This document shows, piece by piece, positions 1,970 to 13,820 of a stretch of 19,015 nt of DNA. The DNA is from a virus (lineage: Duplodnaviria; Heunggongvirae; Uroviricota; Caudoviricetes), in the IMG/VR virus record IMGVR_UViG_2703718841_000004. One strand, given 5' to 3'. A program made the position numbers and the translations under genes. Positions within the stretch are counted from its first letter, which is position 1. Every line of letters begins with the position of its first letter. The notes beneath the pieces were generated by a model. That model searched no databases. It saw only the letters and a program-made list of their open reading frames with translations, and was not told the DNA's origin.

Positions 1970-1977
1970 TATCATAA

Positions 1978-2286: not shown

Positions 2287-2832
2287 CTACACCACCACGC
2301 GCTCTTTCATCCAGCCATACACGAACGATTCATTAGCCTCACGTTTTTCTGCCAGTTCAAGGTAGCGATCTCCCTGCGTACAGTTTAGCGCTGTCAGAAT
2401 CACCAACTCACCATCCCTGCCACGTTTTGACAAATAGGCGCGTAACGCATTAATGGTACGTGGGCCGATACAACCATCTGCATCAATGTCCGGATACAAC
2501 TCTCCTTTCTGGTTAAATACATTAAGCCAGCGCTGAAGCATTCTGGATGCCACTGACGGCCCCATGTTTACGCCGGTATCACACAATTCAGCAGCGATCT
2601 CCGGAGACAGGCTCGCAACCTTGTGAAAACGTGGCCCGTACCAGTAGTCCGCTTCAAGAATTTCGAGGGCCTGCCCACGCGTCAGGTCACGAATATCCCC
2701 CTGATAACCGTGTGCACGGGCAACTTTTCCAGTAATGCCCCATTTAGTCGGACCACCTTTATCATCAGGGTGGTTGACGTAGCCGCCCTCTTTGCCAAGA
2801 ACAGCATCAAAAATTTCATCTTTCGACTTCAT
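2287..2832 (-). CDS. Endolysin, glycoside hydrolase family 108 N-acetylmuramidase with C-terminal peptidoglycan-binding domain
   Basis: Start taken at the internal ATG (MKSKDEIF...) whose ATG overlaps the stop of the upstream membrane-protein gene. The GH108 signature DAVLGKEGGYVNHPDDKGGPTKWGIT is present. TAG stop at 2287-2289. Confidence 0.75.
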   Translation of the reverse strand: MKSKDEIFDAVLGKEGGYVNHPDDKGGPTKWGITGKVARAHGYQGDIRDLTRGQALEILEADYWYGPRFHKVASLSPEIAAELCDTGVNMGPSVASRMLQRWLNVFNQKGELYPDIDADGCIGPRTINALRAYLSKRGRDGELVILTALNCTQGDRYLELAEKREANESFVYGWMKERVVV

Positions 2833-2833
2833 C

Positions 2834-3112
2834 TCAGCGCCTTCGTAATACAAAGATTTTTGAAACGTTCCCACGAGCACGAACCACCAGCACGCAGAAC
2901 AGCAGGTTAAAAAACACTTCCAGCCAGCCCGTTGCTAACGGGCGACCACACAGATAGCTGAGGGGCGCAAAGGCATACAGCAGCATCAGCAACCAGGCCA
3001 GCCATGACATCAGCGGTTTATGTCTGGAATCACGACGACGATAAAAAAAGAGCGTCAGCACAATAACCGTGCATAACGCCACATTCAGCAATCCGGGAAG
3101 GTTACTTAACAT
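2834..3112 (-). CDS. Small membrane protein of the lysis cassette (antiholin or second holin candidate)
   Basis: 92 aa from the first ATG (MLSNLPGLLNVALCTVIVLTLFF...), preceded by a GGAGG RBS. It has two or three hydrophobic helices and a basic C-terminus (RRR). The ATG overlaps the 3' end of the upstream holin ORF and its stop abuts the endolysin start. Confidence 0.5.
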   Translation of the reverse strand: MLSNLPGLLNVALCTVIVLTLFFYRRRDSRHKPLMSWLAWLLMLLYAFAPLSYLCGRPLATGWLEVFFNLLFCVLVVRARGNVSKIFVLRRR

Positions 3113-3494
3113 TGCCGCCTCCTCCACCCCGCAGGCGGGAGAACAGGCCGGACACCAGCGATGCAATATCCTGCTGGTGGATGAACGAGAGAATCTTCAC
3201 CGACACCACCGCCACCAGCACCGCACACAGAGCATCCGCCGATGTACCGTCATAACCTGTTTTTGATGCAATCCAGGCTGACAGCACATGCGCACCCAGC
3301 ACGCCAACGATAAACGACACCAGAAAATGCGCTGCCACACGCCAGGCAGATAGTGCCTGCGGCATTGTGGCCACAAACAGCGCCCCGGCAAATGCGCCAA
3401 ACACAATCCCGAAATCCGTTCCGGTAAACAGCCCGAATACCGTCGCCCCGCCGAGCGCCGCAGCCGTGCCGGAACCGGATAAGGGTTCAGACAT
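3102..3494 (-). CDS. Putative holin (multi-pass membrane protein, Gly/Ala-rich TM helices)
   Basis: 131 aa from ATG 3494 (MSEPLSGSGTAAALGGATVFGLF...), with an RBS GGAG 7 nt upstream. The ORF-track start further upstream is not an ATG. It is the first gene of a holin/membrane-protein/endolysin arrangement. Confidence 0.55.
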   Translation of the reverse strand: MSEPLSGSGTAAALGGATVFGLFTGTDFGIVFGAFAGALFVATMPQALSAWRVAAHFLVSFIVGVLGAHVLSAWIASKTGYDGTSADALCAVLVAVVSVKILSFIHQQDIASLVSGLFSRLRGGGGGNVK

Positions 3495-3510
3495 ACTTTT
3501 TCTCCTGTAA

Positions 3511-3534
3511 ATAAAAAAGGGCCACTGTCGGCCC
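3511..3534 (-). terminator. Candidate intrinsic terminator immediately upstream of the holin RBS (minus strand)
   Basis: GC stem GGGCC/GGCCC (3519-3523 / 3530-3534) with loop ACTGTC; on the minus strand it is followed by TTTTTTAT (complement of 3511-3518). Confidence 0.4.
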
Positions 3535-3621
3535 GTAAAAAAACAACACCCCGTCAAAGGCACCCGCAGATACCTTTTGTGTGGTGTTATCTGATGTGAT
3601 GTGCGCCGGACGTGGCGCGGA

Positions 3622-3648
3622 TATAAAAAAGGCCCGCCGCAGCGAGCC
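3622..3648 (-). terminator. Candidate intrinsic terminator downstream of the AraC-family gene (minus strand)
   Basis: Imperfect stem GGCCCGC/GCGAGCC with loop CGCA (3631-3648); on the minus strand it is followed by TTTTTTATAT (complement of 3621-3630). Confidence 0.4.
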
Positions 3649-3673
3649 TGTTTTCAATGAGTGCAAAATTCAA

Positions 3674-4417
3674 TTATTCTTGAGTAACACTTAAACTCAT
3701 CTCATTGAATGCAGCCATCCTGTAACCTGCCGGTGTAACACCAAAATAACTCCTGAATACGCTGATAAAATAAGATGTAAAATTATAGCCACACTGAGCA
3801 GCGATTCTGTTGATGGCGCAACGAGATTGATTCAACAGCATTGCTGCCATTCTCATTCTCTCTGTAAGCAACAACTCACTGAAACAGGTGCCTTCTTCTT
3901 TCAGTCTTTTTTTTAACAAACTTTCACTGATACATAACCGCGAAGACACATCTCTCAGAGTCCAGTTTGCTGCAATGTCCGTACGAAACAATGCACTAAG
4001 CCTGTCACTAATATTGCCAATACACGCGGTCAGAAACGACGAAAACATTTTCTCTGATGAGAAAAACGCCAGACACGAAAAGGAAAGCATTTCCGCTAAA
4101 TTGTCCGTATGAATCTTTTCCTCACAAAGATAATCAATCAGGATGCCCATCAATTCTGCCTTGGGAAAACTCACGCAAAGATATCGTGGTATTTGCCGGA
4201 CTAAAACTACATCCTGTTTTTCGTCTCCACACAACAGGTAACGGATAATTGTCGATTCACTGAGACTTATTCGCCGAAAACATTCCGAAAAGGGCAATAA
4301 CGATCCAGCTCCCCCCCTGACAAGAAGTGCACTACCACTTTCCAGAGAGAGCTCTTTTCCTTCAAAGAGCACAACAAACGGGGAATGAACAAAAACAACA
4401 GAACAAGCTTCATTCAT
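3674..4417 (-). CDS. AraC/XylS-family transcriptional regulator, AppY/GadX-like (prophage cargo)
   Basis: 247 aa from the first ATG (MNEACSVVFVH...). The C-terminal dual HTH ...ISESLLKKRLKEEGTCFSELLLTERMRMAAMLLNQSRCAINRIAAQCGYNFTSYFISVFRSYFGVTPAGYR is typical of AraC-family proteins, and the N-terminal CSVVF and overall layout resemble AppY of DLP12 as I recall it. The gene looks AT-rich by eye. Confidence 0.8.
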   Translation of the reverse strand: MNEACSVVFVHSPFVVLFEGKELSLESGSALLVRGGAGSLLPFSECFRRISLSESTIIRYLLCGDEKQDVVLVRQIPRYLCVSFPKAELMGILIDYLCEEKIHTDNLAEMLSFSCLAFFSSEKMFSSFLTACIGNISDRLSALFRTDIAANWTLRDVSSRLCISESLLKKRLKEEGTCFSELLLTERMRMAAMLLNQSRCAINRIAAQCGYNFTSYFISVFRSYFGVTPAGYRMAAFNEMSLSVTQE

Positions 4418-4537
4418 ATCAATTGCCCTGACATTACTGGTCACAAGATAAGTATATATCGATTTACAAAAATACAAGCCGAAAGACCAGTATTAGCAAC
4501 CACCAGCGCGTTTAACGTCCTGTACCGTTTTTCAGGC

Positions 4538-4563
4538 ATAAAAAACCCGCTCAGTGGCGGGTT
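4538..4563 (-). terminator. Intrinsic terminator downstream of the ORF6N gene (minus strand)
   Basis: Stem AACCCGC/GCGGGTT (4544-4550 / 4557-4563) with loop TCAGTG; on the minus strand it is followed by TTTTTAT. Confidence 0.5.
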
Positions 4564-4639
4564 TAAGCTGTTTGGCGTAGTAACCACTCTTAACAGGATA
4601 TTCAACTTTTTACGATCGTAAAGCGTTCGGGGAAAATTT

Positions 4640-5128
4640 TTAAAACCGTTCCAGAGTGCATACCATCGCATCGGCGGGTAGTTTTTCCGTGAAGTCGACC
4701 TGACCGTGTTTATCGAAGTGGATCAGTAATGCGCATCCATCATTTTGGGTTGGGGTGTTTTGTGCTGCTGGTGGTTGTTTTTGGCTGAAATAACAGTCTT
4801 CCAGTTTTTCGAACACTTCCCACGCCTGATCGGTTTCCAGCATTTTGGTGTGACGGGCTGCTCCGCGTTCTGTCCAGAGGATGAGGTGCTTTGTACGCGG
4901 TGCAACTAAGTTACTTTGAGTAACCTTGTTCTTAAATTCCCGCAACTCAGCCCCTTCCAATTTGAAGTAGTGTTTCCCACAAACAAAACGCTCGGCATTG
5001 CGTGTATAGTTCACTTTGATGTTATTAGTTTCGGTGCCATAAAGTTGTGCCAAAAGCTCGGTAGTAATGACAGGGATTTGGTTATGGGTGATCGGGGAAA
5101 GAGTTTCAACTGAGATTTGAATAGCCAT
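4640..5128 (-). CDS. ORF6N-domain (KilA-N/antirepressor-like N-terminal domain) phage protein
   Basis: 162 aa with ATG at 5128 and an RBS AAGGA. The segment ITTELLAQLYGTETNNIKVNYTRNAERFVCGKHYFKLEGAELREFKNK...HLILWTERGAARHTKMLETDQAWEVFEKLED matches the ORF6N pattern from memory. Confidence 0.6.
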   Translation of the reverse strand: MAIQISVETLSPITHNQIPVITTELLAQLYGTETNNIKVNYTRNAERFVCGKHYFKLEGAELREFKNKVTQSNLVAPRTKHLILWTERGAARHTKMLETDQAWEVFEKLEDCYFSQKQPPAAQNTPTQNDGCALLIHFDKHGQVDFTEKLPADAMVCTLERF

Positions 5129-5284
5129 AGGATGATCCTTTTTCTATGTGAATCATCACCACTGCTGACGCCAATCAGTATGGTGGTGAACTGTGCAGGG
5201 TTGGCGTAACCGGGAAAAAGGAACCGGCGCGGATCGCTCCGCCCCCACACAGCCCACCATTGAGATGTGACAGTGCAAACGACA

Positions 5285-5307
5285 ATAAAAAAGACGCTGG
5301 CGCGTCT
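5285..5307 (-). terminator. Candidate tR' (intrinsic terminator downstream of Q and of the putative late promoter)
   Basis: Perfect stem AGACGC/GCGTCT (5292-5297 / 5302-5307) with loop TGGC; on the minus strand it is followed by TTTTTATT. It lies about 95 bp downstream of the Q stop. Confidence 0.5.
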
Positions 5308-5367
5308 GTTGTCGCCTTTTTCATCCGGGACGCCAATCCCGACGCCAGATTTTGCTGGCGCGTGAGG

Positions 5368-5397
5368 AATATAGCCCCGGACAATGTGTCTGGTCAA
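5368..5397 (-). promoter_or_regulatory. Candidate late promoter PR' (sigma70-like -35 TTGACC, 18-bp spacer, -10 TATATT) just downstream of Q
   Basis: The reverse complement of 5392-5397 is TTGACC and that of 5368-5373 is TATATT. The position (5 nt after the Q stop, about 70 nt upstream of the candidate tR') mirrors the lambda PR'-qut-tR' layout. Confidence 0.35.
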
Positions 5398-5401
5398 GCT
5401 C

Positions 5402-5788
5402 CTACATGATTCGTTCTACGTATCTGTCCATCTCCAGTCGGATATCAAGCATCATCAACATGCCATCAATAACCCCTTCCGCTTTCTGCAGGCGCTTGCC
5501 AATACAGGTATCCGAACACCCATGCTTTCGTGCCAACCCCATAAAAGTCATTCCACCTACGTAATAATCCACCAACAAATCGTGCAAATCCTGATTTTTC
5601 TTGTTCAACCGGGCCATACAGCCACAAATTATCATTGCATCATCATCAGAACACTGAGGGCGTGATTTCACTTTCGGCGGGATTAATCCTTTAAAACCAG
5701 CAGCGATTGACGCCCATGACACATCTTCGTGATTGTTCGCAGCCCATGCTCCCCACCGCTCCATAACCTGCTGAATATCACGCACCAT
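5402..5788 (-). CDS. Late-gene antiterminator Q (QuuD/phage 21-82 type)
   Basis: 128 aa from ATG 5788 ([34 protein letters not shown]...), RBS AGGTG, with the zinc-binding segment [16 protein letters not shown]. It resembles DLP12 QuuD as recalled. The start overlaps the rusA stop. Confidence 0.8.
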
Positions 5789-6155
5789 CGTTATCACCTG
5801 TAATTTCGTAAATCTTCACGCCCAACCGCCCACCAGGAACAGGCAGTCCGCGCACAATATTGATTTCATCAAACTGCTCGTCGTCTATAAGTAGTCCGGC
5901 ATGCGTCAGCGCATCCAGTGGTGCCTTCAGGATATTGTCCAGGTCGCGGCGGCGCTTATCCGGTGGCTCTGCAATAATTTTTATTGCCAGCCTTCCGGAC
6001 AGGTTTAATTTCAGTCGCTGCTGGCGAACAATAAGCGCCACATCACGGCGATAACGCTCACCGGCTTTTGATACAAAATATGTGCTGCCACGACGTCGCC
6101 AGTAGGTATTCACCGTCGGCGGGTAAGGCAAAACAAATTCTATGCGTTCAGTCAT
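5778..6155 (-). CDS. rusA: Holliday-junction resolvase RusA
   Basis: 125 aa; the RusA family pattern ...[14 protein letters not shown]...[30 protein letters not shown] is recognised. The ATG at 6155 abuts the upstream stop (TGAATG). Confidence 0.85.
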
Positions 6156-7211
6156 TCATGCTTTCCACTTCAGGACACCCGAATTTCTCGCGTGCATTAA
6201 AAAACGAATCAGCAACAACAGCTGGCTGCCGTGTTTTTCTTCAAAATCTTTTACCCCGGCGTGCAGTTCGTTATGACATTTACGGCACAGCGGAATAACA
6301 AACAAATCATCAGCCTTTGTTCCCATCCCTCCCAGTCCATGACCAATGATGTGATGCGGATCATCTGCCTGATTACCGCACGTCATGCATTTCTGCGTTT
6401 TTACCCAGCGCGTGTATACAGGCATCTCTTCCCGTTGTGGTTTCTGGCGCAGGAGATACTGAGCCGGTGACTCCGGATCAACGGCAATGCTGACCACCGT
6501 CTTTTCCTGTGGCGGGTTTTGCTGGTGGGCGTGAGGCAGCGGCGCAAGATTTTTTGTGCGCTGTTTCAGTATGCTGGTGGCGGTCTGTTCTCCCGGTACG
6601 ATGTCGCTTTCGCGGTACACTGAGCGGATGTTTTCACCCGGAAGTTTCAGGATTCGACGCGCCATATTTTCGGTCATGGCATCCACCACATTATTTACAA
6701 CAGCCCAGCAGTACAGTTCAGCCAGTGATAATTCACGCCCCTGCGTGCCATTCATTGCGTGACGGATGACGTCAATCATCCAGGCTGCCAGGTTTTGTTG
6801 AGCCAGATGCTCCAATGATTCGGAGGTCTGGTCACGCAGCTGGTTGTCACAGTGCCAGCACAACACCATCGCGCCGGTACCATAACGGTGAATGACGGTT
6901 TCACTGTGATGATAATCGCCGTGTGGCCACTGGCAGGATTTAATATGGCGCAACAGCCAGTCAGACAATGCACCAGCACCACCGGCAGCACGAATTACCC
7001 GCTCATCGCTGAAAAATGGCAGTAATGATTTATCTTCCGCCAGCGGCTGGCGAACGGCAGGAACGACTCCGGACGGCAGACCGCGCATACTTTTCGGTTC
7101 CGGTTCCACCAGTACTCTGCCGTTATGGAATACCTGCATGGATTCACGGCCAGGCTTAACGATAACCAGTCCGAGTTCCGGTACCAGAACAGGTCGAAGC
7201 AATACCCGCAT
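6156..7211 (-). CDS. DUF968-family prophage protein (YdfU-like) with C-terminal HNH/zinc-finger-like motif
   Basis: 351 aa with a strong RBS GGAGG before ATG 7211. The C-terminus CMTCGNQADDPHHIIGHGLGGMGTKADDLFVIPLCRKCHNELH carries Cys/His spacing of HNH-like zinc fingers. It sits next to rusA, as in Qin and DLP12. Confidence 0.65.
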   Translation of the reverse strand: MRVLLRPVLVPELGLVIVKPGRESMQVFHNGRVLVEPEPKSMRGLPSGVVPAVRQPLAEDKSLLPFFSDERVIRAAGGAGALSDWLLRHIKSCQWPHGDYHHSETVIHRYGTGAMVLCWHCDNQLRDQTSESLEHLAQQNLAAWMIDVIRHAMNGTQGRELSLAELYCWAVVNNVVDAMTENMARRILKLPGENIRSVYRESDIVPGEQTATSILKQRTKNLAPLPHAHQQNPPQEKTVVSIAVDPESPAQYLLRQKPQREEMPVYTRWVKTQKCMTCGNQADDPHHIIGHGLGGMGTKADDLFVIPLCRKCHNELHAGVKDFEEKHGSQLLLLIRFLMHARNSGVLKWKA

Positions 7212-7212
7212 G

Positions 7213-7491
7213 TTACCTCCAGATGCGTTGCTGGAATGTGCGGGATGGACGTGGTGGGCGTTCGGAATAAGGAAGCCTGACGGAAATTATCCAGTGTCGT
7301 AAGTCAAGACTGAGGTCTTTCCTGACCTCGCGTCCGCGCCTGCGATAACACTGAATCAGCCATTCGGCCTGTTCTTCAGTGCACGGATCATGCTGGTACC
7401 AGTCAGTTTTAAAGACGTGTGAACGCCGCCCGTACCGGATGGCAGGGTCGGCTGAGTTATCAGAATTGTGAAATTTGGTCTTGTGCGCCAT
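7213..7491 (-). CDS. Hypothetical nin-region protein (positionally equivalent to rem of Qin)
   Basis: 92 aa from the first ATG (MAHKTKFHNSDNS...). The longer 119-aa ORF-track version starts at TTG and would run through the hok terminator hairpin, so the shorter form is preferred. Its stop is 1 nt from the downstream gene start. Confidence 0.4.
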   Translation of the reverse strand: MAHKTKFHNSDNSADPAIRYGRRSHVFKTDWYQHDPCTEEQAEWLIQCYRRRGREVRKDLSLDLRHWIISVRLPYSERPPRPSRTFQQRIWR

Positions 7492-7561
7492 CTGTTTTCT
7501 CTGCTGGCGCAGCAGGTGCCAGTTGTTCAGGCTGGCGTGCGAATTGTAAACCAGAATGCCA

Positions 7562-7590
7562 GGAAAAAACAAAACCCGCCGAAACGGGTT
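7562..7590 (-). terminator. Intrinsic terminator at the 3' end of the hok mRNA (minus strand)
   Basis: Stem AACCCG/CGGGTT (7573-7578 / 7585-7590) with loop CCGAAA; on the minus strand it is followed by TTTTGTTTTTT. Confidence 0.55.
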
Positions 7591-7658
7591 AAGCGCGGGT
7601 GCATTGAGGATGCCTGACTCATCAGAGGTGGCGAGGGATTTCTCCCCCGCCTAGTCTC

Positions 7659-7814
7659 TTACTCCTCAGGTTCGTAAGCTGTGAAGACAGCGACCTCCGT
7701 CTGGCCGGTTCGGATTCGTACCTCGCAGAGGTCTTTCCTCGTTACCAGTGCCGTCACTATGACGGTTAAACAGATGACGATCAGGGCGATTAACATCGCC
7801 TTTTGCTGCTTCAT
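7659..7814 (-). CDS. hokD: Hok/Gef-family type I toxin (HokD/RelF-like small membrane toxin)
   Basis: 51 aa, MKQQKAMLIALIVICLTVIVTALVTRKDLCEVRIRTGQTEVAVFTAYEPEE, recognised as HokD/RelF. RBS AAGGAG upstream of ATG 7814. Confidence 0.85.
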   Translation of the reverse strand: MKQQKAMLIALIVICLTVIVTALVTRKDLCEVRIRTGQTEVAVFTAYEPEE

Positions 7815-7871
7815 AGCCTGCTTCTCCTTGCCTTCCGGCACGTAAGAGGCTAACCTACATGTGTCTAGCAT
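7659..7871 (-). CDS. mok: mok (overlapping reading frame whose translation is coupled to hok)
   Basis: 70-aa frame starting at ATG 7871, running in frame into and ending with hok; this is the canonical mok/hok overlap. Confidence 0.5.
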   Translation of the reverse strand: MLDTCRLASYVPEGKEKQAMKQQKAMLIALIVICLTVIVTALVTRKDLCEVRIRTGQTEVAVFTAYEPEE

Positions 7872-7930
7872 GAAATTGGCCTCAGATTAATGTTAAGCGT
7901 CTTGCAGGACGCGTAATGTTAACTGGGGCT
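7863..7930 (+). ncRNA. sok: Candidate Sok antisense RNA (antitoxin) of the hok/sok module
   Basis: Inferred from hok/sok architecture. On the plus strand a possible -35 TTGCCT (7828-7833) and -10 TAACCT (7851-7856) precede the region antisense to the mok start and RBS, with a stem-loop GCGTC-TTGCAG-GACGC at 7907-7922. The boundaries are not established. Confidence 0.25.
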
Positions 7931-8392
7931 TTTCTCTATCTGCCGTTGGTGTTCATGCCCGAGGCAGATAGCCTCAAGCACCCACAGCCATTCTACTTAA
8001 CTACCGTTACCTCGCCAACATGAAATCAATCAGAAAGGCGAACCATAAGAACAATAACAACAATTAAATTCATTTTCTCAAATCCTGTTAACGACGCCCA
8101 TCCGACACTAACAACTTTCATTTATTATACTATTTCCCCATCGACGCTCTGCGTTGGCATAACACAAATCTGTCTGTCCGTTTGGGTAAAGAGCGGATAT
8201 CTGCAGTTTCAAAGAAACTGCGCATGCACACGAACTATCAAAGATAGTGATAACTGAGATAAAAACATATGGAAGCCTTCGGCATTTAAAAATAACAGCA
8301 AATCATATAAAAGGAAAGAGATAAGCAACATTTACATAACATGTATCACGATACGCCCCAGTGTTAATAAAAAGACTATCACTTTATTCTTT

Positions 8393-8398
8393 TATAAT
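8393..8398 (+). promoter_or_regulatory. Candidate -10 hexamer (TATAAT) of a promoter for the OLD-family gene
   Basis: Consensus TATAAT lies about 50 nt upstream of ATG 8449 in an AT-rich 590-bp intergenic region. No convincing -35 was found. Confidence 0.2.
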
Positions 8399-8448
8399 GT
8401 TAGTTTGCACTAGCAAGTGCCACTCCGAACAGAAAAAGGATACATGTA

Positions 8449-10260
8449 ATGAAGCTACAGCAATTTAATATTAAAAATTACAAGTCGATAAAAGATGAAA
8501 TAGAAGTATATATCGATGATATAGTTGTGCTAATTGGTCCAAATAACTCTGGAAAGTCAACAATATTAGATGCGTATGAAAAGTTTGCATCTTTAGGATC
8601 AGCAAAAGGCCTGACTGCTCATGATTTTTATAACTCAGATATATCTATACCAATTGAAATGTGCGGAATTTTCACTGATATCACTGATGATGATATTCGT
8701 ACATTAGGGGGAGAGAAATGGTTTTATAAAGATGATGCTCTTGACAGAAGAAATATGGCAAGAAAGTATGGGGGAGATTGGGAGAAAAATAATACCCCAT
8801 TGGAAAGCAAACTCTATTATTGTGTTAAATGGGTTTGGTCACATCCAGAAAAAGCAGCCCAAAAACAATCCTATGGCCTTGATGATGCCTCTGGCAAACG
8901 CATATTTATTGATGGGGGCTCTGGGGGACTTGACACACTACTACAAAGTCGAGTTCCTCAACCAATAAGAATAAGCCCAGATAAATCCATGGATGAAACT
9001 AAAAAAATTATCATAAGTTTCTTAAAGGAAGATGCAAAAGATGAGTTACTGAAAACAGGGGAAAGTAAAGCTGATATAATACAGAAAATACAAGAGTTGA
9101 CAGACACTCTTATGAAAGATTCCAAATCAAAAATCGATGATCTTCTACAGCAGGTCTCCAAATCATCATCATCTGTTTTTCCTGGGCTAGAACTGGAATT
9201 AAACATACTTTCCAAGGATCCCGTAGATGCGGATGTTATGGTTTCAGAATCTAACCTTACAGTGAAAATGGATGGGATAAATAGCTCTCTTCTCGAGAAC
9301 CAAGGTCACGGTGTTCGCCGCTCCGTTTTATGGTCTGCTTTGCAAATTTTGACTCACGAATCTCATGCACGAGATAAAATAAAAAAAGCGAAAGGTAAGC
9401 CTATCTCTGTTGAGAAAAAACAATATATTTTATTGATTGATGAGCCTGAATCATTTCTTCACCCTCCTATAATTAGAAGTGCGAGGGACTCGCTTTATGA
9501 TTTTGCAGCAAACAATGATAACTGGCAGGTGATGGCTACAACACACTCCCCTGTATTCATAGACTTATCCAAGAAGCACACGACTATAATTAGGATAGAA
9601 AAAGACAAATCGCTAAATAAAACAATATCTACAGATGAACTATCTTTTTCTGAAGAGGAAAAAGATAATATGAAAATGATAAGATTATGCAACCCAATGG
9701 TTAATGAGTTTTTCTTTTACGACAATATAATATTAGTTGAAGGCCCAACTGAAAAAATCGTCATTAACAAAATATGTGATATTGTCGGAGTTGATTATCA
9801 TATCATTGACTGTTTAGGAAAAGGGAATATAAAAACATTTGCTAAAATATTAAATCAATTTAACGTTGAGTATATAGCAGTACATGACTCCGACATTCCA
9901 AAATGCTTAAAGCAAGGAAGCGTTTCAGGTAATGGGGCATGGGGTTCAAATGTATCCATAATGAACGAATGCTCTAAAAGTAAAAAACCAATGGTATTTA
10001 TTCAAATACCTCATTTCGAAGGACTGTTTTTTAAAAATTTCAATCCATCAAACAAAGTTGAGACAGTAACATCAGTTCTATCTAATAATTTAACACCAGA
10101 ATACAAAGCAATATTTGATACATATAGCAGAATTTTAAACAAAGATCCATCTGTTTTTATCAGCTCCAACGAAAAAATGATAGACATGTATCATGCATTT
10201 TATGCCAGTAATAAAAACCAAATTGAGACGCTAAAGAATCCTGAAATCTGGATCCTTTAA
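8449..10260 (+). CDS. OLD-family nuclease-type protein: N-terminal ABC/SMC-like ATPase with coiled-coil insert plus C-terminal Toprim domain (class 1 OLD-like or fused PARIS-like); candidate anti-phage defence gene
   Basis: 603 aa. Walker A GPNNSGKST (aa 30-38, nt 8536-8562), coiled-coil insert about aa 180-240, Walker B ILLIDEPE (aa 327-334, nt 9427-9450), H-loop ATTHSP (aa 363-368), Toprim glutamate in ILVEGPTE (E431, nt 9739-9741), conserved Gly in CLGKG, and DxD in VHDSDIP (aa 480-482, nt 9886-9894). RBS AAGGA 8 nt upstream and a clean terminator downstream. It is plus-strand in a minus-strand neighbourhood and visibly AT-rich. Confidence 0.75.
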   Translation: MKLQQFNIKNYKSIKDEIEVYIDDIVVLIGPNNSGKSTILDAYEKFASLGSAKGLTAHDFYNSDISIPIEMCGIFTDITDDDIRTLGGEKWFYKDDALDRRNMARKYGGDWEKNNTPLESKLYYCVKWVWSHPEKAAQKQSYGLDDASGKRIFIDGGSGGLDTLLQSRVPQPIRISPDKSMDETKKIIISFLKEDAKDELLKTGESKADIIQKIQELTDTLMKDSKSKIDDLLQQVSKSSSSVFPGLELELNILSKDPVDADVMVSESNLTVKMDGINSSLLENQGHGVRRSVLWSALQILTHESHARDKIKKAKGKPISVEKKQYILLIDEPESFLHPPIIRSARDSLYDFAANNDNWQVMATTHSPVFIDLSKKHTTIIRIEKDKSLNKTISTDELSFSEEEKDNMKMIRLCNPMVNEFFFYDNIILVEGPTEKIVINKICDIVGVDYHIIDCLGKGNIKTFAKILNQFNVEYIAVHDSDIPKCLKQGSVSGNGAWGSNVSIMNECSKSKKPMVFIQIPHFEGLFFKNFNPSNKVETVTSVLSNNLTPEYKAIFDTYSRILNKDPSVFISSNEKMIDMYHAFYASNKNQIETLKNPEIWIL

Positions 10261-10290
10261 TTTTTAATGTTGTAATAAATATTATTTAGT

Positions 10291-10317
10291 AACAACCCTC
10301 TATTGAGGGTTGTTTTT
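10291..10317 (+). terminator. Intrinsic terminator of the OLD-family gene
   Basis: Perfect 10-bp stem AACAACCCTC/GAGGGTTGTT (10291-10300 / 10305-10314) with loop TATT, followed by TTTTAAT; it lies 31 nt after the stop codon. Confidence 0.7.
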
Positions 10318-10580
10318 AATCATAAGAAATCTGACACACTCTATCATACTAAAAATAACACAACATGCATACAAAGTGTTTATATGCATAGACATATTAC
10401 CTCACATCTGAGTCAATACACTTTAATTTCATTTACCGAACCAATTTCTTATTACTGGTATGATAAAAGTTCAACACACGCCGCATAACTTCGCTCTTCC
10501 GGCACTCGCGACGGATTATGTTTAGACGCCTGTCATAGTGACGTATTTCTCCGTCTGGTAATGACCAGATAAGGTCCGGA

Positions 10581-10856
10581 TCAACCACAGATGGTTTCTT
10601 CAGCTTTGCCCTCGAGAGTTTTTTTGCGGGCGTTTTGCCAGTCCTTACGAGCCTGTTCAGACGGGAATAACCCGTAGCCAGAGTTGTATACATCACCGCT
10701 CGCAACCAGCTCTCTGGCAAGAACGCTCATCAGATATCTTGTCGCACCTGTTTTAGCTTCCAGTTGCCGTAGCGTCTCTCGCCCACTCTGGCGTACTAGC
10801 TTAACAACCTGCCCTTTAATTTTTTCCCGCTCTTCTTGTGTAAAAACTTTTGCCAC
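10581..10856 (-). CDS. Hypothetical protein downstream of the replication gene (GTG start); possibly the N-terminal part of a frameshifted gene
   Basis: 91 aa (MAKVFTQEEREKIKGQVVKLVRQSGRETLRQLEAKTGATRYL...) with GTG start at 10856 and a strong RBS AGGAGG 4-5 nt upstream. It overlaps a second ORF (10433..10720) in another frame at an A7/T7 homopolymer. Confidence 0.45.
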   Translation of the reverse strand: MAKVFTQEEREKIKGQVVKLVRQSGRETLRQLEAKTGATRYLMSVLARELVASGDVYNSGYGLFPSEQARKDWQNARKKTLEGKAEETICG

Positions 10857-10896
10857 AAGCCCTCCTGAAAATTACCTCATGACCAGAAATTAACAC

Positions 10897-11979
10897 TTAC
10901 CCCCTGAAGCCCGGCGGAATTTCGTTATCCGGTTCAGAAATATGATTCACACAACGCTGGTTGTTCGTGCCGCTTACCGGGAGCAACCAAGGGTTCTCAA
11001 AATTCCGGTCCGGTCCCAAAAACGTCGTCGCTCGCTGAACAAATTCCGTTCCCGTTTTCCCGGTAGCCGCCAGGTATCTTGCGTAACGCCTCACACCATC
11101 CAGCATGGCCTCTGGTGGCACCCCCTCGCGTAATCTGGCTTTCCAGGCACTGAAAGCGGATTTCTTCGGGTTTGCCCCGGCACGCAACGGGTATTCCCGC
11201 CAGACCTGTTCGAACACATCAGGATAATCCACTCGTCCCACAGGCTGCCCGGTGTTTTCCGGGACTACCCGATCGGCTTCCCGCTGAATGGCGGAATCGG
11301 CTTCAGGCTGCTGAAGTTGGTGTGATTGCTCCTGCCTTGCGGTCATCACCTGCTGCACAGCGCCCGAATCGGCTTTCAGCGCATACGCTGAATCGGCTTC
11401 CGGTGTCGTGCCTGCTGGCTGACCAAGATTGACGGTCTGAACATCCCCTGCCTGGTTCGTGGCGTTTTTTACGCCATGGACCATAGTGTTTTGATCTTCT
11501 TGATCTGTATCTTTATCTGTATCTTTATCTGTATCTTTATCTGTCGTGACTCGTCGTGACATGTGCGTGACATTTCGTGACTCGCCGTGACAATCGCCAT
11601 TTTGTTCCCGCTTTCTTTCCCTCTCTCGCTGCGCCCTCTTGCGCTCTGCCGGAGATTTTGCGGTTTGCGAAATATTGCCGTTGTCCTCTTTCAGCACCTG
11701 GCGTTTTTCCCATCCAGTGATTAAATCACCATCAAGTACCCGCCCCTGCATCGTCTGCAAAATTGAATCAATTACCTCTTCTGTCACGTCGAGCGCACTT
11801 GCCAAATCTTCTGTCGTGACATCAATGTGACCTCGCGTGACATTTCGTGACGCGCTCACCAGGAGGTGGATATACACTGCCATCACTGTTGCAATTGGCT
11901 GCCCTGACACCCTGGCAATTGTTCGCCACTTAGGGTCATTTGGCATGTCATGCCATAATCTGAGCCAGGCGTTAGCCAT
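10897..11979 (-). CDS. Putative phage replication initiation protein (O-like) containing the origin iterons within its coding sequence
   Basis: About 360 aa from ATG 11979 (MANAWLRLWHDMPNDPKW...), RBS AGAGG. It lies downstream of the Cro-like and CII-like genes, where lambdoid phages place O. Iteron arrays and an AT-rich tandem repeat sit inside the ORF. The family assignment is not confirmed. Confidence 0.6.
   Translation of the reverse strand: MANAWLRLWHDMPNDPKWRTIARVSGQPIATVMAVYIHLLVSASRNVTRGHIDVTTEDLASALDVTEEVIDSILQTMQGRVLDGDLITGWEKRQVLKEDNGNISQTAKSPAERKRAQRERERKREQNGDCHGESRNVTHMSRRVTTDKDTDKDTDKDTDQEDQNTMVHGVKNATNQAGDVQTVNLGQPAGTTPEADSAYALKADSGAVQQVMTARQEQSHQLQQPEADSAIQREADRVVPENTGQPVGRVDYPDVFEQVWREYPLRAGANPKKSAFSAWKARLREGVPPEAMLDGVRRYARYLAATGKTGTEFVQRATTFLGPDRNFENPWLLPVSGTNNQRCVNHISEPDNEIPPGFRG
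11503..11544. repeat. AT-rich 12-bp tandem repeat (ATCTGTATCTTT x 3.5); candidate DNA-unwinding element of the origin, encoding a (TDKD)n segment
   Basis: Exact tandem copies at 11503-11514, 11515-11526 and 11527-11538, plus a partial copy at 11539-11544. Translated on the minus strand this gives TDKDTDKDTDKDTD. Confidence 0.6.
11545..11591. repeat. Iteron array 1: five direct CGTGAC hexamers at about 10-11 bp phasing (candidate initiator binding sites of ori)
   Basis: CGTGAC at 11545, 11555, 11566, 11576 and 11586, with spacings 10, 11, 10 and 10 bp, directly adjacent to the AT-rich tandem repeat. Confidence 0.55.
11815..11851. repeat. Iteron array 2: four direct (C/T)GTGAC hexamers at 10-11 bp phasing; shares an exact 17-bp repeat with array 1
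   Basis: Hexamers at 11815, 11826, 11836 and 11846. GCGTGACATTTCGTGAC is identical at 11565-11581 and 11835-11851. An inverted copy GTCACG lies at 11784-11789. Confidence 0.5.
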
Positions 11980-12050
11980 ACTCACCTCTTCTGATACCGA
12001 ATCTTTTTACTCACGAGTTGCCGGAAGCGATTCGATATGACTATTGTCAG

Positions 12051-12476
12051 TCAATGTACTGCCACAGCATTTCCTTCCGGGCCACCACGGTTCATCTGAT
12101 TGAAACCGGCGATTGCCACTGCGACAAAATCATCAGCGTCTCTCACCAGTCGCTCCCGCGTCTCCACCAGCTCCCGAAAATAAGCTGAACTGTGGCTGCG
12201 CATTCTGGCCACCAGCAAAGGTGGCATTGCCTTTTCGATCGCTGGTAACAACGCCTGAATTTTTTCAACTGCATCAGGGGTGTCTTTCTCTATCCAGCGG
12301 AAAATTTTCTGGGTATTGCGAGCCAGGGCTTCCGGATGGCTGTCGTCGTACAGTTCAGGAAACGTCATACCCAACTCAAAATAAGCCTGGGTTATTCCAG
12401 CTGCCGGAACTTTTTCGCCATCAGGACGCGCCCAGGCATTCATCGCCATGCGGATGTGTTCATGCTTGATTTTCAT
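12051..12476 (-). CDS. YdaT-like protein (CII-like regulator domain)
   Basis: 141 aa starting MKIKHEHI..., as recalled for Rac YdaT. Its ATG overlaps the upstream gene's stop (ATGA), and it follows the Cro-like gene. Confidence 0.7.
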   Translation of the reverse strand: MKIKHEHIRMAMNAWARPDGEKVPAAGITQAYFELGMTFPELYDDSHPEALARNTQKIFRWIEKDTPDAVEKIQALLPAIEKAMPPLLVARMRSHSSAYFRELVETRERLVRDADDFVAVAIAGFNQMNRGGPEGNAVAVH

Positions 12477-12727
12477 GAATCAACTCCCATCAGCTTTTTC
12501 GTAGTAGTTTTATTCCTGCCAATAGTTAAAATTGCATCGGCAGAAAATAATCCGTTTGATGCAAGAGCGATTTTTTCAGCGTAATTTGTTTCGCCGGTAT
12601 ATTCTGTGCGAGGCAATTTTCCGTTATCCATCCATTTATAGATTGCTCTTTGGCTGACACCACAAACGTCGGCCACAACAGCAACGCGAACAGTTTTGAT
12701 TACATCTTCAAGTGTTTTCTGGTTCAT
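12473..12727 (-). CDS. Cro-like HTH regulator (YdaS-type)
   Basis: 84 aa from ATG 12727 (MNQKTLEDVIKTVRVAVVADVCGVSQRAIYKWMDNGKLP...), RBS GAGGGTG. It is divergent from the repressor gene. Confidence 0.65.
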   Translation of the reverse strand: MNQKTLEDVIKTVRVAVVADVCGVSQRAIYKWMDNGKLPRTEYTGETNYAEKIALASNGLFSADAILTIGRNKTTTKKLMGVDS

Positions 12728-12806
12728 ATCACCCTCACAATGTGAACTTTGAGTACATGCTATAACAGAACTGACAGTACATTCAAGAGCGAATATCATT
12801 GAACTT
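12728..12806. promoter_or_regulatory. Divergent operator/promoter region between the Cro-like gene and the repressor (OR-like)
   Basis: 79-bp intergenic region with two direct AGTACAT motifs (12752-12758, 12776-12782) and the palindrome TCACA-A-TGTGA (12735-12745) over the Cro-like gene RBS region. The repressor ATG has no obvious RBS. Confidence 0.45.
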
Positions 12807-13226
12807 ATGGTTCATGAAGATAAAGCGCGTAAAGAGTTCGCCAGTAGGCTTGCGCTAGCCTGTGAAAACGCTGGTTATGAACAACATGGAAGGCAGGCAG
12901 AAATTGCCCGTCGAATGAAATTAACACCAAAAGCGGTTAGCAAATGGTTTAATGGCGAAACAATTCCTCGCCGGGAGAAATTAAGGGAATTAGCAACACT
13001 AATAGGAACAACACCAACCTATCTTTTGGGAGAGGATACAGAAGAAAGTGGACAGGTACGTTTCTATCAGGAGTTAAATCCAAGACAAAAAATCATCATT
13101 GACCTTCTGGACGAGCTCCCTGACAGTGAGACAGATGAACTTTTAAAAACTCTTGAAGAGAAAAAACAGAAGTACAATGCAATTTACGAAGAGTTAGCAC
13201 GAAAGAAAAAACAAAAAGCCTCTTAA
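12807..13226 (+). CDS. Prophage repressor, XRE-family HTH (DicA/RacR/CI-like)
   Basis: 139 aa; N-terminal HTH (...FASRLALACENAGYEQHGRQAEIARRMKLTPKAVSKWFNGETIP...) and an acidic/helical C-terminus. It is divergent from the Cro-like gene. Confidence 0.8.
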   Translation: MVHEDKARKEFASRLALACENAGYEQHGRQAEIARRMKLTPKAVSKWFNGETIPRREKLRELATLIGTTPTYLLGEDTEESGQVRFYQELNPRQKIIIDLLDELPDSETDELLKTLEEKKQKYNAIYEELARKKKQKAS

Positions 13227-13299
13227 ACCAGCATAAATCCGGTAGCGCCTTCCTCCGGGTTTGTGCTTCACTTTATCCCATCTCATTTTTTTACACACA

Positions 13300-13350
13300 A
13301 AATGTACTAAAAGTACTTTACAACAATGAACGCAAAGTACATTATATACC
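13300..13350 (+). promoter_or_regulatory. OL/PL-like operator-promoter region for the early-left operon
   Basis: ATGTACT (13302-13308), the 10-bp palindrome AAAGTACTTT (13310-13319) and AGTACAT (13336-13342) share the motif found in the divergent region. A candidate -35 TTACAA (13318-13323) and -10 ATTATA (13341-13346) overlap them. Confidence 0.4.
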
Positions 13351-13523
13351 TGCCACCCACCCCGCCCCACAGAATGCAGGGCAATACTTCGAGTTACCAG
13401 GCAGTGGTCAGGGGTTAAGTAGCCAGCCCGAGGCGTAAGAACATGACGGCAGGGTTCAACTTTAATAACTATGCAGCAGGTTTTTGTTCCGCTACCCCGG
13501 CGTTAAGGGGAAATGAGGTCAAC

Positions 13524-13679
13524 ATGGATACTATCGATCTTGGCAACAACGAATCTCTGGTGTACGGCGTGTTTCCCAACCAGGACGGCACATTCACCGC
13601 GATGACGTATACCAAAAGCAAAACGTTTAAAACCGAAAATGGTGCCCGTCGCTGGCTGGAAAGAAACTCAGGTGAGTGA
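13524..13679 (+). CDS. ydfA: DUF1391 small protein (YdfA-like)
   Basis: 51 aa from ATG 13524 (MDTIDLGNNESLVYGVFPNQDGTFTAMTYTKSKTFKTENGARRWLERNSGE), RBS GAGGT. It is the first gene of the early-left operon, as in Qin (recalled). Confidence 0.65.
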   Translation: MDTIDLGNNESLVYGVFPNQDGTFTAMTYTKSKTFKTENGARRWLERNSGE

Positions 13680-13680
13680 T

Positions 13681-13809: not shown

Positions 13810-13820
13810 CGGGGTTAAAG

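What the first reader, a model, noticed from the sequence alone, without database searches (positions are those of the whole stretch)
7562..7990. Complete hok/mok module with candidate sok immediately upstream of the OLD-family gene
A Hok toxin ORF identical in character to HokD/RelF is nested in a longer mok frame, with a terminator hairpin at its 3' end and a plausible antisense promoter (TTGCCT-17-TAACCT) on the other strand. In K-12 hokD is the last gene of relB-relE-hokD, as I recall; here there is no relBE-sized ORF upstream, so hok appears to stand alone with its own antisense control. Hok/sok loci can act as phage-exclusion modules, so a type I toxin-antitoxin beside an OLD-family nuclease looks like a small defence island inside the prophage.
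Basis: partly seen in the sequence, partly recalled or inferred. Interest (0 to 1): 0.5.

Follow-up and report, generated by a model that had tools for sequence, protein, structure and literature searches.

The report
Intact hokD-type hok/mok/sok toxin-antitoxin module
This is a complete copy of a well-known RNA-controlled toxin-antitoxin module (hok/sok) in an E. coli lambdoid prophage; it is common and already annotated, and the OLD nuclease gene beside it is unrelated cargo in a variable slot.

Summary
[quoted passage not shown] The hok CDS is nucleotide-identical to K-12 hokD. Rfam (114 bits) and Pfam (1e-23) both hit.

K-12 hokD is the relBE-truncated form, and this locus is the intact one; no relBE is present.

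One correction: "mok" is not a separate overlapping frame as in plasmid R1. It is an in-frame 19-codon N-terminal extension of hok, as in K-12 mokC/hokC.

The module occurs in 4739 of 5426 complete E. coli genomes, where PGAP calls it hokD. It is 93% identical to hokW-sokW of prophage Sp5, which has been characterised experimentally. It is therefore already known.

The "defence island" reading is only partly supported. hok is a conserved backbone anchor. The low-GC OLD gene sits in a hypervariable cargo slot (8071-10460) between hok and a DUF977 gene. In related prophages that slot carries Kiwa, PD-Lambda-2 and other defence systems. The hok-OLD pairing occurs in only 4 genomes.

The parts
7990..8018 (-). 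hok promoter: -35 TTGGCG (8018-8013), 17-nt spacer, -10 TAGAAT (7995-7990)
   Evidence: Consensus scan, 9 of 12 matches. The -10 sits 7 nt upstream of the first base of the Rfam model match at 7983. TAGAAT is conserved in relatives.
7566..7983 (-). Full-length hok mRNA, about 418 nt. The 5' end is inferred from the promoter and the start of the Rfam model; the 3' end lies in the T-run after the terminator.
   Evidence: MFE -171.9 kcal/mol, z=-6.4 against shuffles, with the 5' end paired to the 3' end.
7972..7983 (-). tac element, GGGUGCUUGAGG (5' end of the mRNA)
   Evidence: Pairs with fbi in the full-length fold and with ucb in the 3'-truncated fold. All 82 leaders analysed carry this 12-mer; it was also the search anchor that defined them, so the count is a selection criterion, not independent evidence. 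In the 72 unique leaders, columns 7979-7970 show zero variation.
7923..7933 (-). ucb / anti-SD box, AAAAGCCCCAG
   Evidence: In the full-length fold it lies in the long hairpin that covers the mok SD. In the truncated fold it pairs with tac. The same pairing is in the Rfam consensus structure.
7846..7883 (-). mok SD/dcb hairpin, the Sok target. It holds the mok SD GAGG (7883-7880), the mok AUG (7871-7869), a 7-nt loop CUAGACA and dcb GCCUC (7850-7846).
   Evidence: Forms in the truncated-mRNA fold. All 16 sequence variants found in relatives keep the GAGGC/GCCUC stem, the AUG at hairpin position 13 and a stability of -10 to -14 kcal/mol. Element coordinates.
7659..7871 (-). mok reading frame: a 70-codon ORF in frame with hok, encoding MLDTCRLASYVPEGKEKQA followed by Hok
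   Evidence: It has the same 57-nt offset and shared stop codon as annotated mokC/hokC in K-12 and as the 70-aa 'MokC' CDS in Sakai prophage Sp5. The extended ORF is open in 70 of 70 relatives that have the 57-nt spacing.
7659..7814 (-). hok CDS, 51 aa, MKQQKAMLIALIVICLTVIVTALVTRKDLCEVRIRTGQTEVAVFTAYEPEE. Its SD AAGGAG lies within 7829-7821.
   Evidence: Pfam HOK_GEF 1.2e-23. Nucleotide-identical to K-12 hokD. PGAP annotates it as hokD, WP_000813254.1.
7597..7609 (-). fbi (fold-back inhibition) element, CCUCAAUGCACCC, complementary to tac with one bulged base
   Evidence: CCTCAA[C/T]GCACCC is present in 76 of 82 relatives.
7563..7590 (-). Intrinsic terminator of the hok mRNA: 7-bp stem AACCCGU/GCGGGUU at 7590-7573, followed by a T-run
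   Evidence: Terminator scan.
7828..7856 (+). Sok promoter: -35 TTGCCT (7828-7833), 17-nt spacer, -10 TAACCT (7851-7856)
   Evidence: Read from the sequence. The same hexamers occur in 62 of 82 relatives. It differs by one spacer base from the Sp5 sokW locus, where mutation of the sokW promoter abolished antitoxin activity (PMC8621323).
7863..7936 (+). Sok antisense RNA, about 74 nt. It has a single-stranded 5' tail (7863-7877) that overlaps the mok AUG, a long hairpin (7878-7929) and a U-tail.
   Evidence: The start is inferred from its spacing to the -10 and from annotated sokC, which starts 8 nt inside mokC. The fold is -30.3 kcal/mol, z=-5.3, ending in a hairpin plus UUUUCUC. sokW is reported to have 71 nt of complementarity to the hokW leader (PMC8621323). 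Transcription was not tested here.
8071..10460 (.). Context, not part of the TA module: a low-GC (about 34%) cargo insert between the hok promoter and the 3' end of the DUF977 gene
   Evidence: GC profile. Homology to 85 related loci stops at about 8000-8070 and resumes at 10461. The slot shows 38 types among 59 loci.
8449..10260 (+). Context: single-gene OLD-family ATP-dependent nuclease (603 aa), divergent from hok
   Evidence: Pfam AAA_15 8.5e-30 and OLD-like TOPRIM 2.3e-14. PADLOC 'Old' 3.4e-73. No partner ORF on either side. Only 30% identity over 33% of its length to P2 Old.

Best explanation
The locus is an intact hok/mok/sok type I toxin-antitoxin module of the HokD/HokW lineage. It sits in the nin-type region of a Qin/Rac-like lambdoid prophage of E. 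coli.

Mechanism (the anatomy is shown here; the dynamics are inferred from the R1 and hokW-sokW systems):
1. A constitutive promoter (8018-7990) makes a stable mRNA of about 418 nt.
2. The 5' tac element of this mRNA pairs with the 3' fbi element. This locks the mok Shine-Dalgarno into a hairpin with ucb, so the full-length RNA is neither translated nor bound by Sok.
3. Slow 3' trimming removes fbi. tac then pairs with ucb, and the mok initiation region refolds into the SD/dcb hairpin.
4. That hairpin is the target of Sok, a short-lived antisense RNA of about 74 nt made from TTGCCT-17-TAACCT on the opposite strand. Sok overlaps the mok start codon. Pairing blocks mok translation and leads to RNase III cleavage.
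5. When Sok supply stops, ribosomes start at the mok AUG and read through the hok ribosome-binding site. Plausible causes are loss of the prophage, transcription shut-off by an infecting phage, or SOS/prophage induction as shown for hokW-sokW.
6. The products are Hok, and here also a 70-aa in-frame extended form. Hok depolarises the inner membrane.

The adjacent OLD-family gene is independent horizontally acquired cargo in a hypervariable slot. It is not a partner of hok.
For: - Family identity: Rfam RF01794 at 114 bits, E=9.7e-26, full model length. Pfam HOK_GEF 1.2e-23.
- Promoter and terminator are at the expected positions.
- RNA switch: the full-length fold pairs the 5' GGGUGCUUGAGG with the 3' CCUCAAUGCACCC, z=-6.4. 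The fold of the 3'-truncated RNA switches to tac/ucb plus an SD/dcb hairpin. This is exactly the two-state model described for R1 (PMC9841398).
- Sok: a hairpin plus U-tail, -30.3 kcal/mol, z=-5.3. Its promoter hexamers are conserved in 62 of 82 relatives. Its start maps onto annotated sokC of K-12.
- Toxin: the CDS is nucleotide-identical to K-12 hokD, and HokD was used as a toxic positive control (bioRxiv 10.1101/2025.08.07.668861).
- Experimental relative: the module is 93% identical to the Sp5 hokW-sokW locus, with identical Sok promoter hexamers. That locus was shown to be a type I TA whose antitoxin needs the sokW promoter, and it is activated on mitomycin C induction (PMC8621323).
- mok: the in-frame form matches the annotated K-12 mokC/hokC. 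The ORF is open in 70 of 70 relatives with 57-nt spacing.
- Independence of OLD: a low-GC insert, unique among 85 loci, with the junction present in 4 of 5426 genomes.
Against: - No expression data exist for this locus. Sok transcription, mRNA processing and toxicity are all inferred.
- The Sok -10 (TAACCT) is a weak consensus match and was not called by the generic scan.
[quoted passage not shown] - The biological role is unresolved even for hokW-sokW. Candidates are prophage addiction, abortive infection and lysis or phage-release timing.
- Whether the 70-aa extended Hok is made, and whether it is toxic, is unknown.
Confidence: 0.85

Rival explanations
1. The locus looks intact but is functionally silent. 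It would be a selfish or decaying relic that is never activated, as proposed for other chromosomal hok/sok loci.
For: Chromosomal hokA (E. coli C), hokB (K-12) and hokC (ECOR24) could not mediate post-segregational killing and were not rifampicin-activated (Pedersen & Gerdes 1999, as summarised). The K-12 copy of this same gene is truncated by relBE, which shows the module is dispensable.
Against: Every regulatory element is intact and conserved across 82 relatives while the flanks vary. Across three different mok configurations, the mok ORF always stays open at least as far as the hok start codon. The hairpin architecture is kept in 16 sequence variants. The 93%-identical hokW-sokW is active and affects phage release (PMC8621323).
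Confidence: 0.12
2. hok/sok and the OLD nuclease form one functional unit, a two-component defence island.
For: They are adjacent and divergently oriented. hok/sok of R1 has been reported to exclude T4 (cited in PMC8621323). OLD-family proteins are defence nucleases (PADLOC Old 3.4e-73). The slot next to hok often holds defence systems.
Against: The hok-OLD junction is present in 4 of 5426 genomes, while hok alone is in 4739. The OLD insert has 34% GC against about 52% for hok and is unique among 85 loci. The same hok module borders 38 different cargo types. It also occurs at a different position, near att, in Sp5/933W-type phages. hok is not enriched near defence systems globally.
Confidence: 0.04
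3. The module's main role is anti-phage abortive infection, with Sok decay after host transcription shut-off by a lytic phage. On this view it is not mainly a prophage addiction module or a lysis and release helper.
For: hok/sok of R1 is reported to defend against T4 (references cited). hok is enriched in prophages, 23% against 5% expected, and prophages commonly carry defence genes. The module borders a defence-cargo slot.
Against: The only experiment on a near-identical prophage locus, hokW-sokW, found a role in lysis and phage release after induction. Phage defence has not been tested for this lineage. There is no global association of hok with defence systems.
Confidence: 0.25

Closest known systems
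hokW-sokW of Sakai prophage Sp5 / 933W-type Stx2 phages (PMC8621323)
   Same: The module is 93% identical in nucleotide sequence. It has the same promoter -10, tac, ucb, Sok hairpin and Sok promoter hexamers, and the same in-frame 70-codon Mok-Hok ORF. It has been shown experimentally to be a type I TA that depends on the sokW promoter.
   Different: Hok differs at 4 C-terminal residues, FTAYEPEE here against FVDYESEK in HokW. The Sok 5' tail and target loop differ at about 6 positions, and the terminator region differs. In Sp5/933W the module lies near the att end of the prophage, not between the replication genes and the Q region.
K-12 relB-relE-hokD (Qin prophage)
   Same: The hok CDS is nucleotide-identical and the 3' UTR with fbi and terminator is nearly identical. 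The prophage backbone is the same type: Q, DUF968/ydfU, hokD, then further along ydfA, ydfB, dicB and ydfD.
   Different: In K-12, homology starts about 15 nt upstream of the hok ATG. The promoter, tac, ucb, mok start and the whole sok gene are replaced by relBE. The window has all of these elements and no relBE.
hokC/mokC/sokC (gef) of E. coli K-12
   Same: The architecture is the same. mok is in frame with hok, with a 57-nt offset and a shared stop codon. sok starts 8 nt inside mok on the opposite strand. tac and ucb are nearly identical.
   Different: It is a different Hok paralogue. SokC has a shorter hairpin, 59 nt annotated against about 74 nt here, because of a 16- to 18-nt insertion in the hairpin of the window locus. 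The K-12 copy is flanked by IS186.
hok/mok/sok (parB) of plasmid R1
   Same: The set of elements is the same: tac, fbi, ucb, dcb, mok SD, antisense Sok and translational coupling through mok. The predicted two-state mRNA switch is also the same (model in PMC9841398).
   Different: R1 mok is described as a separate 70-aa leader peptide CDS overlapping hok; that it lies out of frame with hok is my own recollection, not tested here. An out-of-frame state is seen in this clade only in the Rac record, which has a 58-nt offset. HokW shares only 44% identity with R1 Hok. R1 is a plasmid context, not a prophage.
P2 old and the P2/P4 defence hotspots (PMC9122126)
   Same: The neighbouring gene is a single-gene ATPase+TOPRIM OLD-family protein carried by a prophage in a variable cargo site.
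   Different: It shares only 30% identity over 33% of its length with P2 Old, and its best phage relatives are Rhizobium phages at 41.6%. The host element is lambdoid, not P2-like. The slot is bounded by hok and a DUF977 gene.

Membership tests
[quoted passage not shown] | Small (about 50 aa) hydrophobic Hok/Gef toxin ORF | tested here: met
   51 aa, HOK_GEF 1.2e-23, covering profile positions 1-42 of 42. Identical to K-12 HokD.
[quoted passage not shown] | Conserved hok mRNA leader in both sequence and structure (tac/ucb stem, Sok-target region) | tested here: met
   The covariance model matches over its full length, positions 1-157 of 157, at 114 bits against a gathering score of 59. The hit is on the hok-sense strand.
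[quoted passage not shown] | Long-range 5' tac / 3' fbi pairing that closes the full-length mRNA, with a switch to tac/ucb after 3' truncation | tested here: met
   Predicted by thermodynamic folding of the full-length RNA and the truncated RNA. Complementary 12- and 13-mers are at 7983-7972 and 7609-7597. There is no covariation support, because tac is invariant in the relatives sampled.
[quoted passage not shown] | mok leader reading frame that starts in the Sok-target region and is translated across the hok ribosome-binding site | tested here: met
   ATG 7871 has the SD GAGG 8 nt upstream, and the ORF stays open through hok. It is the in-frame variant, as in the annotated mokC/hokC pair.
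[quoted passage not shown] | cis-encoded antisense Sok RNA with its own promoter and terminator, overlapping the mok initiation region | tested here: inconclusive
   The sequence features are all present and conserved. Actual transcription cannot be tested with these tools.
[quoted passage not shown] | Toxicity of Hok and neutralisation by Sok | not testable with these tools
   Known only by proxy. HokD peptide is toxic, and hokW-sokW is functional.
relBE-hokD operon (K-12 arrangement) | relB and relE immediately upstream of hokD and co-transcribed with it | tested here: not met
   No ORF longer than 40 aa lies upstream. tblastn with RelB and RelE gives no hit better than E=1.5 anywhere in the window. 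Homology to the K-12 locus ends 15 nt before the hok ATG.
OLD-family nuclease, single-gene (P2 Old-like) type | N-terminal ABC-type ATPase plus C-terminal TOPRIM nuclease domain in one protein | tested here: met
   AAA_15 at residues 1-371 and OLD-like TOPRIM at residues 422-482. PADLOC Old 3.4e-73.
OLD-family nuclease, single-gene (P2 Old-like) type | No adjacent partner gene such as GajB/UvrD-like helicase or AriB | tested here: met
   No co-oriented ORF of 100 aa or more lies between 8071 and 10460 apart from the OLD CDS itself.
Defence island (functionally or evolutionarily linked neighbouring defence genes) | Recurrent co-occurrence of the two components | tested here: not met
   The hok-OLD junction is in 4 of 5426 genomes, against 4739 genomes with the hok module. 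The OLD insert is unique among 85 related loci.
Prophage cargo/defence hotspot | A fixed position between conserved anchors holding many unrelated gene sets, including known defence systems | tested here: met
   59 loci with both anchors give 38 slot types. PADLOC hits in 12 of the 59 loci (8 of the 38 types): Old, Kiwa, Hp1-3, PDC-S15, PD-Lambda-2_C, Aga_REase-like and PDC-S39. Septu and PD-T4-6 occur upstream of hok in two loci where the far (DUF977) anchor lies beyond the sequence held.

The most novel reading that the evidence does not exclude
Two things about the surroundings of this ordinary module may be undescribed.

1. The interval between the hok/sok module and the DUF977 gene of Qin/Rac-type lambdoid prophages is a dedicated cargo hotspot. 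It shows 38 slot types in 59 loci and carries Old, Kiwa, PD-Lambda-2, PDC-S15, PDC-S39 and other systems. Two further loci, whose far anchor lies beyond the sequence held, carry Septu and PD-T4-6 upstream of hok. hok/sok is its fixed left anchor.

2. Among copies that encode the identical toxin, sequence change is concentrated in the 20 nt that form the 5' tail of Sok and its target loop. There are 16 variants, all of which keep the hairpin architecture. The mok frame exists in three interchangeable forms. This pattern is what would be expected if co-resident hok/sok copies were selected to keep their Sok RNAs from cross-reacting.
Probability: 0.3. Interest if true: 0.45.

Novelty: already known. 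Interest (0 to 1): 0.2.

Why it matters
For the hok/sok finding itself, little changes. The locus is already annotated as hokD in RefSeq, is matched by Rfam and Pfam, and has a near-identical relative that was characterised experimentally.

Its use is as a reference. It shows what K-12 hokD looked like before relBE replaced its control region.

Two by-products could be useful:
- The hok and DUF977 anchors give a simple way to harvest defence and other cargo genes from lambdoid prophages, much as has been done for the P2/P4 hotspots.
- The set of natural variants with the same toxin, 16 different Sok-target sequences and three mok configurations forms a ready-made series. It could be used to test what determines Sok specificity and whether the Mok product matters.

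Tried and rejected
- **relBE remnants.** The ORF list and tblastn with K-12 RelB and RelE against the whole window found none.
- **Out-of-frame mok as in R1.** In the window the +1 frame has only ATG-TAG at 7860 and no usable start. I rejected it in favour of the in-frame MokC-type reading.
- **Generic sigma-70 scan for the Sok promoter.** It was not called. I relied instead on homology to sokC and sokW and on conservation among relatives.
- **Covariation support for tac-fbi.** This was impossible in the clade, because the tac 12-mer was the anchor used to select the leaders and fbi varies only at the bulged base.
- **Do co-resident copies differ in the Sok-target patch?** Only two same-genome pairs were available. 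One pair differed and one was identical, so the result is inconclusive.
- **Literature on a hok-adjacent hotspot.** No paper in the searchable library holds hokD, hotspot and defense together. Pedersen & Gerdes 1999 and Steif & Meyer 2012 are not in the library, so I could not rule out prior description of mok-frame variation.
- **DicF in this Qin-like prophage.** Not found; there is only a sub-threshold STnc100-like hit.
- **Terminator after the OLD gene.** None was detected.
Full report
**1. Observation**

- A 51-codon ORF on the minus strand (7659..7814) is a Hok/Gef toxin, Pfam HOK_GEF E=1.2e-23.
- It lies inside a 70-codon ORF that starts at ATG 7871.
- A terminator hairpin and T-run follow at 7590..7563.
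- On the plus strand, TTGCCT (7828-7833), a 17-nt spacer and TAACCT (7851-7856) can be read directly.
- The Rfam model RF01794 ('sok') matches 7983..7809 over its full length at 114 bits, E=9.7e-26.
- A sigma-70-like promoter, TTGGCG-17-TAGAAT at 8018..7990 on the minus strand, ends 7 nt before the first base of that match.

One technical point: the Rfam hit is on the hok-sense strand, and its last model positions align to the hok start region. The model therefore describes the hok mRNA leader. The Sok RNA itself is the reverse complement of part of it.

**2. Element map**

On the hok mRNA, with +1 at 7983:

| Element | Coordinates |
|---|---|
| tac, GGGUGCUUGAGG | 7983-7972 |
| ucb / anti-SD | 7933-7923 |
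| mok SD, GAGG | 7883-7880 |
| mok AUG | 7871 |
| dcb, GCCUC | 7850-7846 |
| hok SD, AAGGAG | within 7829-7821 |
| hok AUG | 7814 |
| stop | 7661-7659 |
| fbi, CCUCAAUGCACCC | 7609-7597 |
| terminator | 7590-7573 |

- The full-length RNA folds with tac paired to fbi and with the mok SD buried against ucb. The MFE is -171.9 kcal/mol, z=-6.4.
- When the last 46 nt of that RNA (7611-7566, containing fbi and the terminator) are removed, the predicted fold switches. tac pairs with ucb, and the mok initiation region forms an SD/dcb hairpin with a 7-nt loop.
- This is the two-state model established for plasmid R1 (PMC9841398).
- On the plus strand, a start about 7 nt after the -10 (G7863) gives an RNA of about 74 nt. 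It has a free 5' tail, a long hairpin and a U-tail, at -30.3 kcal/mol and z=-5.3.
- Annotated sokC of K-12 starts 8 nt inside mokC, which maps exactly to 7863 here.

**3. Relatives**

*Origin.* The window is a Qin/Rac-like lambdoid prophage of E. coli. It is 99.85% identical over window positions 1-12481 to strain VG48B2, where PGAP annotates this CDS as hokD.

*K-12 hokD.*
- The K-12 hok CDS is nucleotide-identical to the window's. Homology begins only about 15 nt before the hok ATG.
- K-12 has therefore lost the promoter, tac, ucb, mok start and sok. The window holds the intact form.
- No relBE is present.

*Sp5 hokW-sokW.*
- The module is 93% identical to the hok locus of Sakai prophage Sp5, with the same Sok promoter hexamers.
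- That locus, hokW-sokW, was shown to be a type I TA. HokW is toxic, sokW expressed from its own promoter neutralises it, and a sokW promoter mutant does not.
- sokW has 71 nt of complementarity to the leader.
- After mitomycin C, sokW falls and HokW rises. Phage release halves without the locus (PMC8621323).

*Abundance.* The module is extremely common, found in 4739 of 5426 complete E. coli genomes with a median of 2 copies and up to 10.

**4. The mok frame**

- In the window the upstream ATG is 57 nt from the hok ATG, so it is in frame. 'Mok' here is a Hok with 19 extra N-terminal residues.
- This is not an oddity. K-12's annotated mokC and hokC share a stop codon and differ by 57 nt. Sp5's 70-aa CDS is annotated as MokC.
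- Among 86 copies of hok (85 of them encoding the same Hok protein; the other is K-12 hokC), the spacing is distributed as follows:

| Spacing | Copies | Reading |
|---|---|---|
| 57 nt | 70 | In frame; the extended ORF is always open |
| 56 nt | 11 | 19-codon leader ORF whose UGA overlaps the hok AUG (AUGA) |
| 58 nt | 1 (phage Rac) | Out-of-frame 68-codon mok |
| no leader | 4 | Three have the K-12 relE-type upstream sequence; one has a different one |

- The product varies freely, but translation into the hok ribosome-binding site is preserved. This fits the R1 result that mok translation, not the Mok protein, is what matters.

**5. Neighbourhood and the 'defence island' idea**

*The OLD gene is independent cargo.*
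- The neighbouring 603-aa protein has AAA_15 and OLD-TOPRIM domains and matches PADLOC 'Old' at 3.4e-73.
- It has no partner gene. It is only distantly related to P2 Old, 30% identity over 33% of its length.
- It lies in a 34% GC insert, while hok and the other flanking DNA are about 52% GC.
- Against 85 related loci, homology stops at about 8000-8070 and resumes at 10461, the 3' end of a DUF977 gene. Nothing between these points matches.
- The hok-OLD junction occurs in only 4 genomes.
- hok is backbone, OLD is cargo, and they are not a unit. A large survey likewise found no enrichment of hok near defence systems, 12% against 9.4% expected, although hok is enriched in prophages, 23% against 5%.

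*The slot itself is a hotspot.*
- 59 loci that have both anchors fall into 38 slot types of 0.9-3.7 kb.
- PADLOC recognises defence proteins in 12 of these loci:
  - Old (the window)
  - Kiwa KwaA/KwaB (L016, L077)
  - a three-gene Hp1-3 set (L006)
  - PDC-S15 (L055)
  - PD-Lambda-2_C (L018, L043)
  - an Aga_REase-like protein (4 loci)
  - PDC-S39 (L065)
- Septu PtuA/PtuB (L057) and a PD-T4-6 kinase (L011) occur upstream of hok in loci where the far anchor lies beyond the sequence held.
- Other cargo includes QueH, DUF5677 and DUF551 proteins, a KAP NTPase and, in K-12, relBE.
- I found no paper that links hokD to a hotspot. Prophage hotspots are an established concept for P2/P4 (PMC9122126).

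**6. A variable patch inside a conserved RNA**

- Among 72 unique relatives, column entropy within the transcript peaks at 7879-7860, at 0.65-0.82. Elsewhere in the leader it is 0.46 or less, with a secondary maximum at the Sok hairpin loop (7909-7900), and in the CDS it is near zero.
- These 20 nt are the mok start, the 5' tail of Sok and the target loop.
- Sixteen distinct SD-to-dcb hairpins exist. All keep the GAGGC/GCCUC stem, the AUG at hairpin position 13 and a stability of -10 to -14 kcal/mol.
- This would be expected if co-resident copies were kept orthogonal. The only two same-genome pairs available gave one differing pair and one identical pair, so the idea remains untested.

**7. 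Verdict**

- Two corrections apply. mok is in frame with hok, and the OLD gene is independent cargo rather than a partner.
- The module is already known and annotated, so interest is low.
- The mechanism is inferred with high confidence from its anatomy and from near-identical characterised relatives. The biological role remains open between addiction, abortive infection and help with lysis or release.
- One caveat stands: other intact chromosomal hok loci were reported to be inactive in killing assays.

Noticed in passing
window 8071-10460; loci L003-L085: The interval between the hok promoter and the 3' end of the DUF977 gene is a hypervariable cargo slot, with 38 types in 59 loci. It carries Old, Kiwa, PD-Lambda-2_C, PDC-S15, PDC-S39 and Hp1-3, plus QueH, relBE (K-12) and many unknowns. 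Septu and PD-T4-6 occur upstream of hok in two loci where the far anchor lies beyond the sequence held.
   Followed up: partly
window 7860-7879 (both strands): Sequence variation among relatives that encode the identical Hok is concentrated in the mok start, Sok 5' tail and target-loop patch. There are 16 hairpin variants, all with conserved architecture. This may reflect diversification of Sok specificity. The within-genome test was inconclusive, n=2.
   Followed up: partly
window 7815-7871; L002 (Rac), L062 and 10 other loci: Three interchangeable mok configurations occur upstream of the same hok: in frame with a 57-nt offset (70 copies), a 19-codon leader ORF ending in AUGA at the hok start with a 56-nt offset (11 copies), and an out-of-frame 68-codon mok with a 58-nt offset (1 copy).
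   Followed up: yes
window 7809-7983 (-): The Rfam family named 'sok antitoxin' (RF01794) matches the hok-sense strand and ends at the hok start region. It therefore models the hok mRNA leader, not the Sok RNA, and automated annotation from it would place 'sok' on the wrong strand.
   Followed up: yes
window 5179-5374 (-): Rfam hits to isrK (79 bits), C4 antisense RNA (74 bits) and its a1/b1 targets (52 bits) lie just downstream of the Q antiterminator gene and upstream of an ORF6N-domain (antirepressor-like) gene at 4640-5128. This resembles a P1/P7 immI-type or IsrK/anti-Q-type regulatory module.
   Followed up: no
window ~10625 (DUF977 gene, 10433-10856, -): Relative to strain VG48B2, the window has a 1-nt indel that splits the DUF977 gene into two overlapping ORFs (10581-10856 and 10433-10720). 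This is either a frameshift or a sequencing error.
   Followed up: partly
window 12482-19015: Identity to VG48B2 is 99.85% up to 12481 and then drops to 84-97% with gaps. The immunity and early-left region is mosaic, and the window comes from a different strain.
   Followed up: no
window 13400-15200: Unlike K-12 Qin, no DicF sRNA is detected between ydfB' and dicB. There is only a sub-threshold STnc100-like match at 14513-14667 (+), 33 bits against a gathering score of 47.
   Followed up: partly
window 7676-7679 (-), hok codon Tyr47: The Tyr47 codon lies in a UACG motif (GCUUACGAA). This is the type of site at which TadA A-to-I editing is reported to recode Tyr to Cys in hokB, and similarly in hokC, hokD and hokE (bioRxiv 10.1101/2025.08.07.668861). 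No convincing local hairpin was predicted.
   Followed up: partly
L005 and L088 (Stx2 phage I; Sakai Sp5): In 933W/Sp5-type phages the same hok/sok module sits near the att end of the prophage, not between the replication genes and Q. The module has therefore moved between positions in lambdoid genomes.
   Followed up: no
window 8449-10260 (+): Among phage records, the closest relatives of the OLD-family protein are Rhizobium phages (41.6% identity), not P2 Old (30% over a third of its length). With 34% GC, this points to recent acquisition from a distant source.
   Followed up: partly
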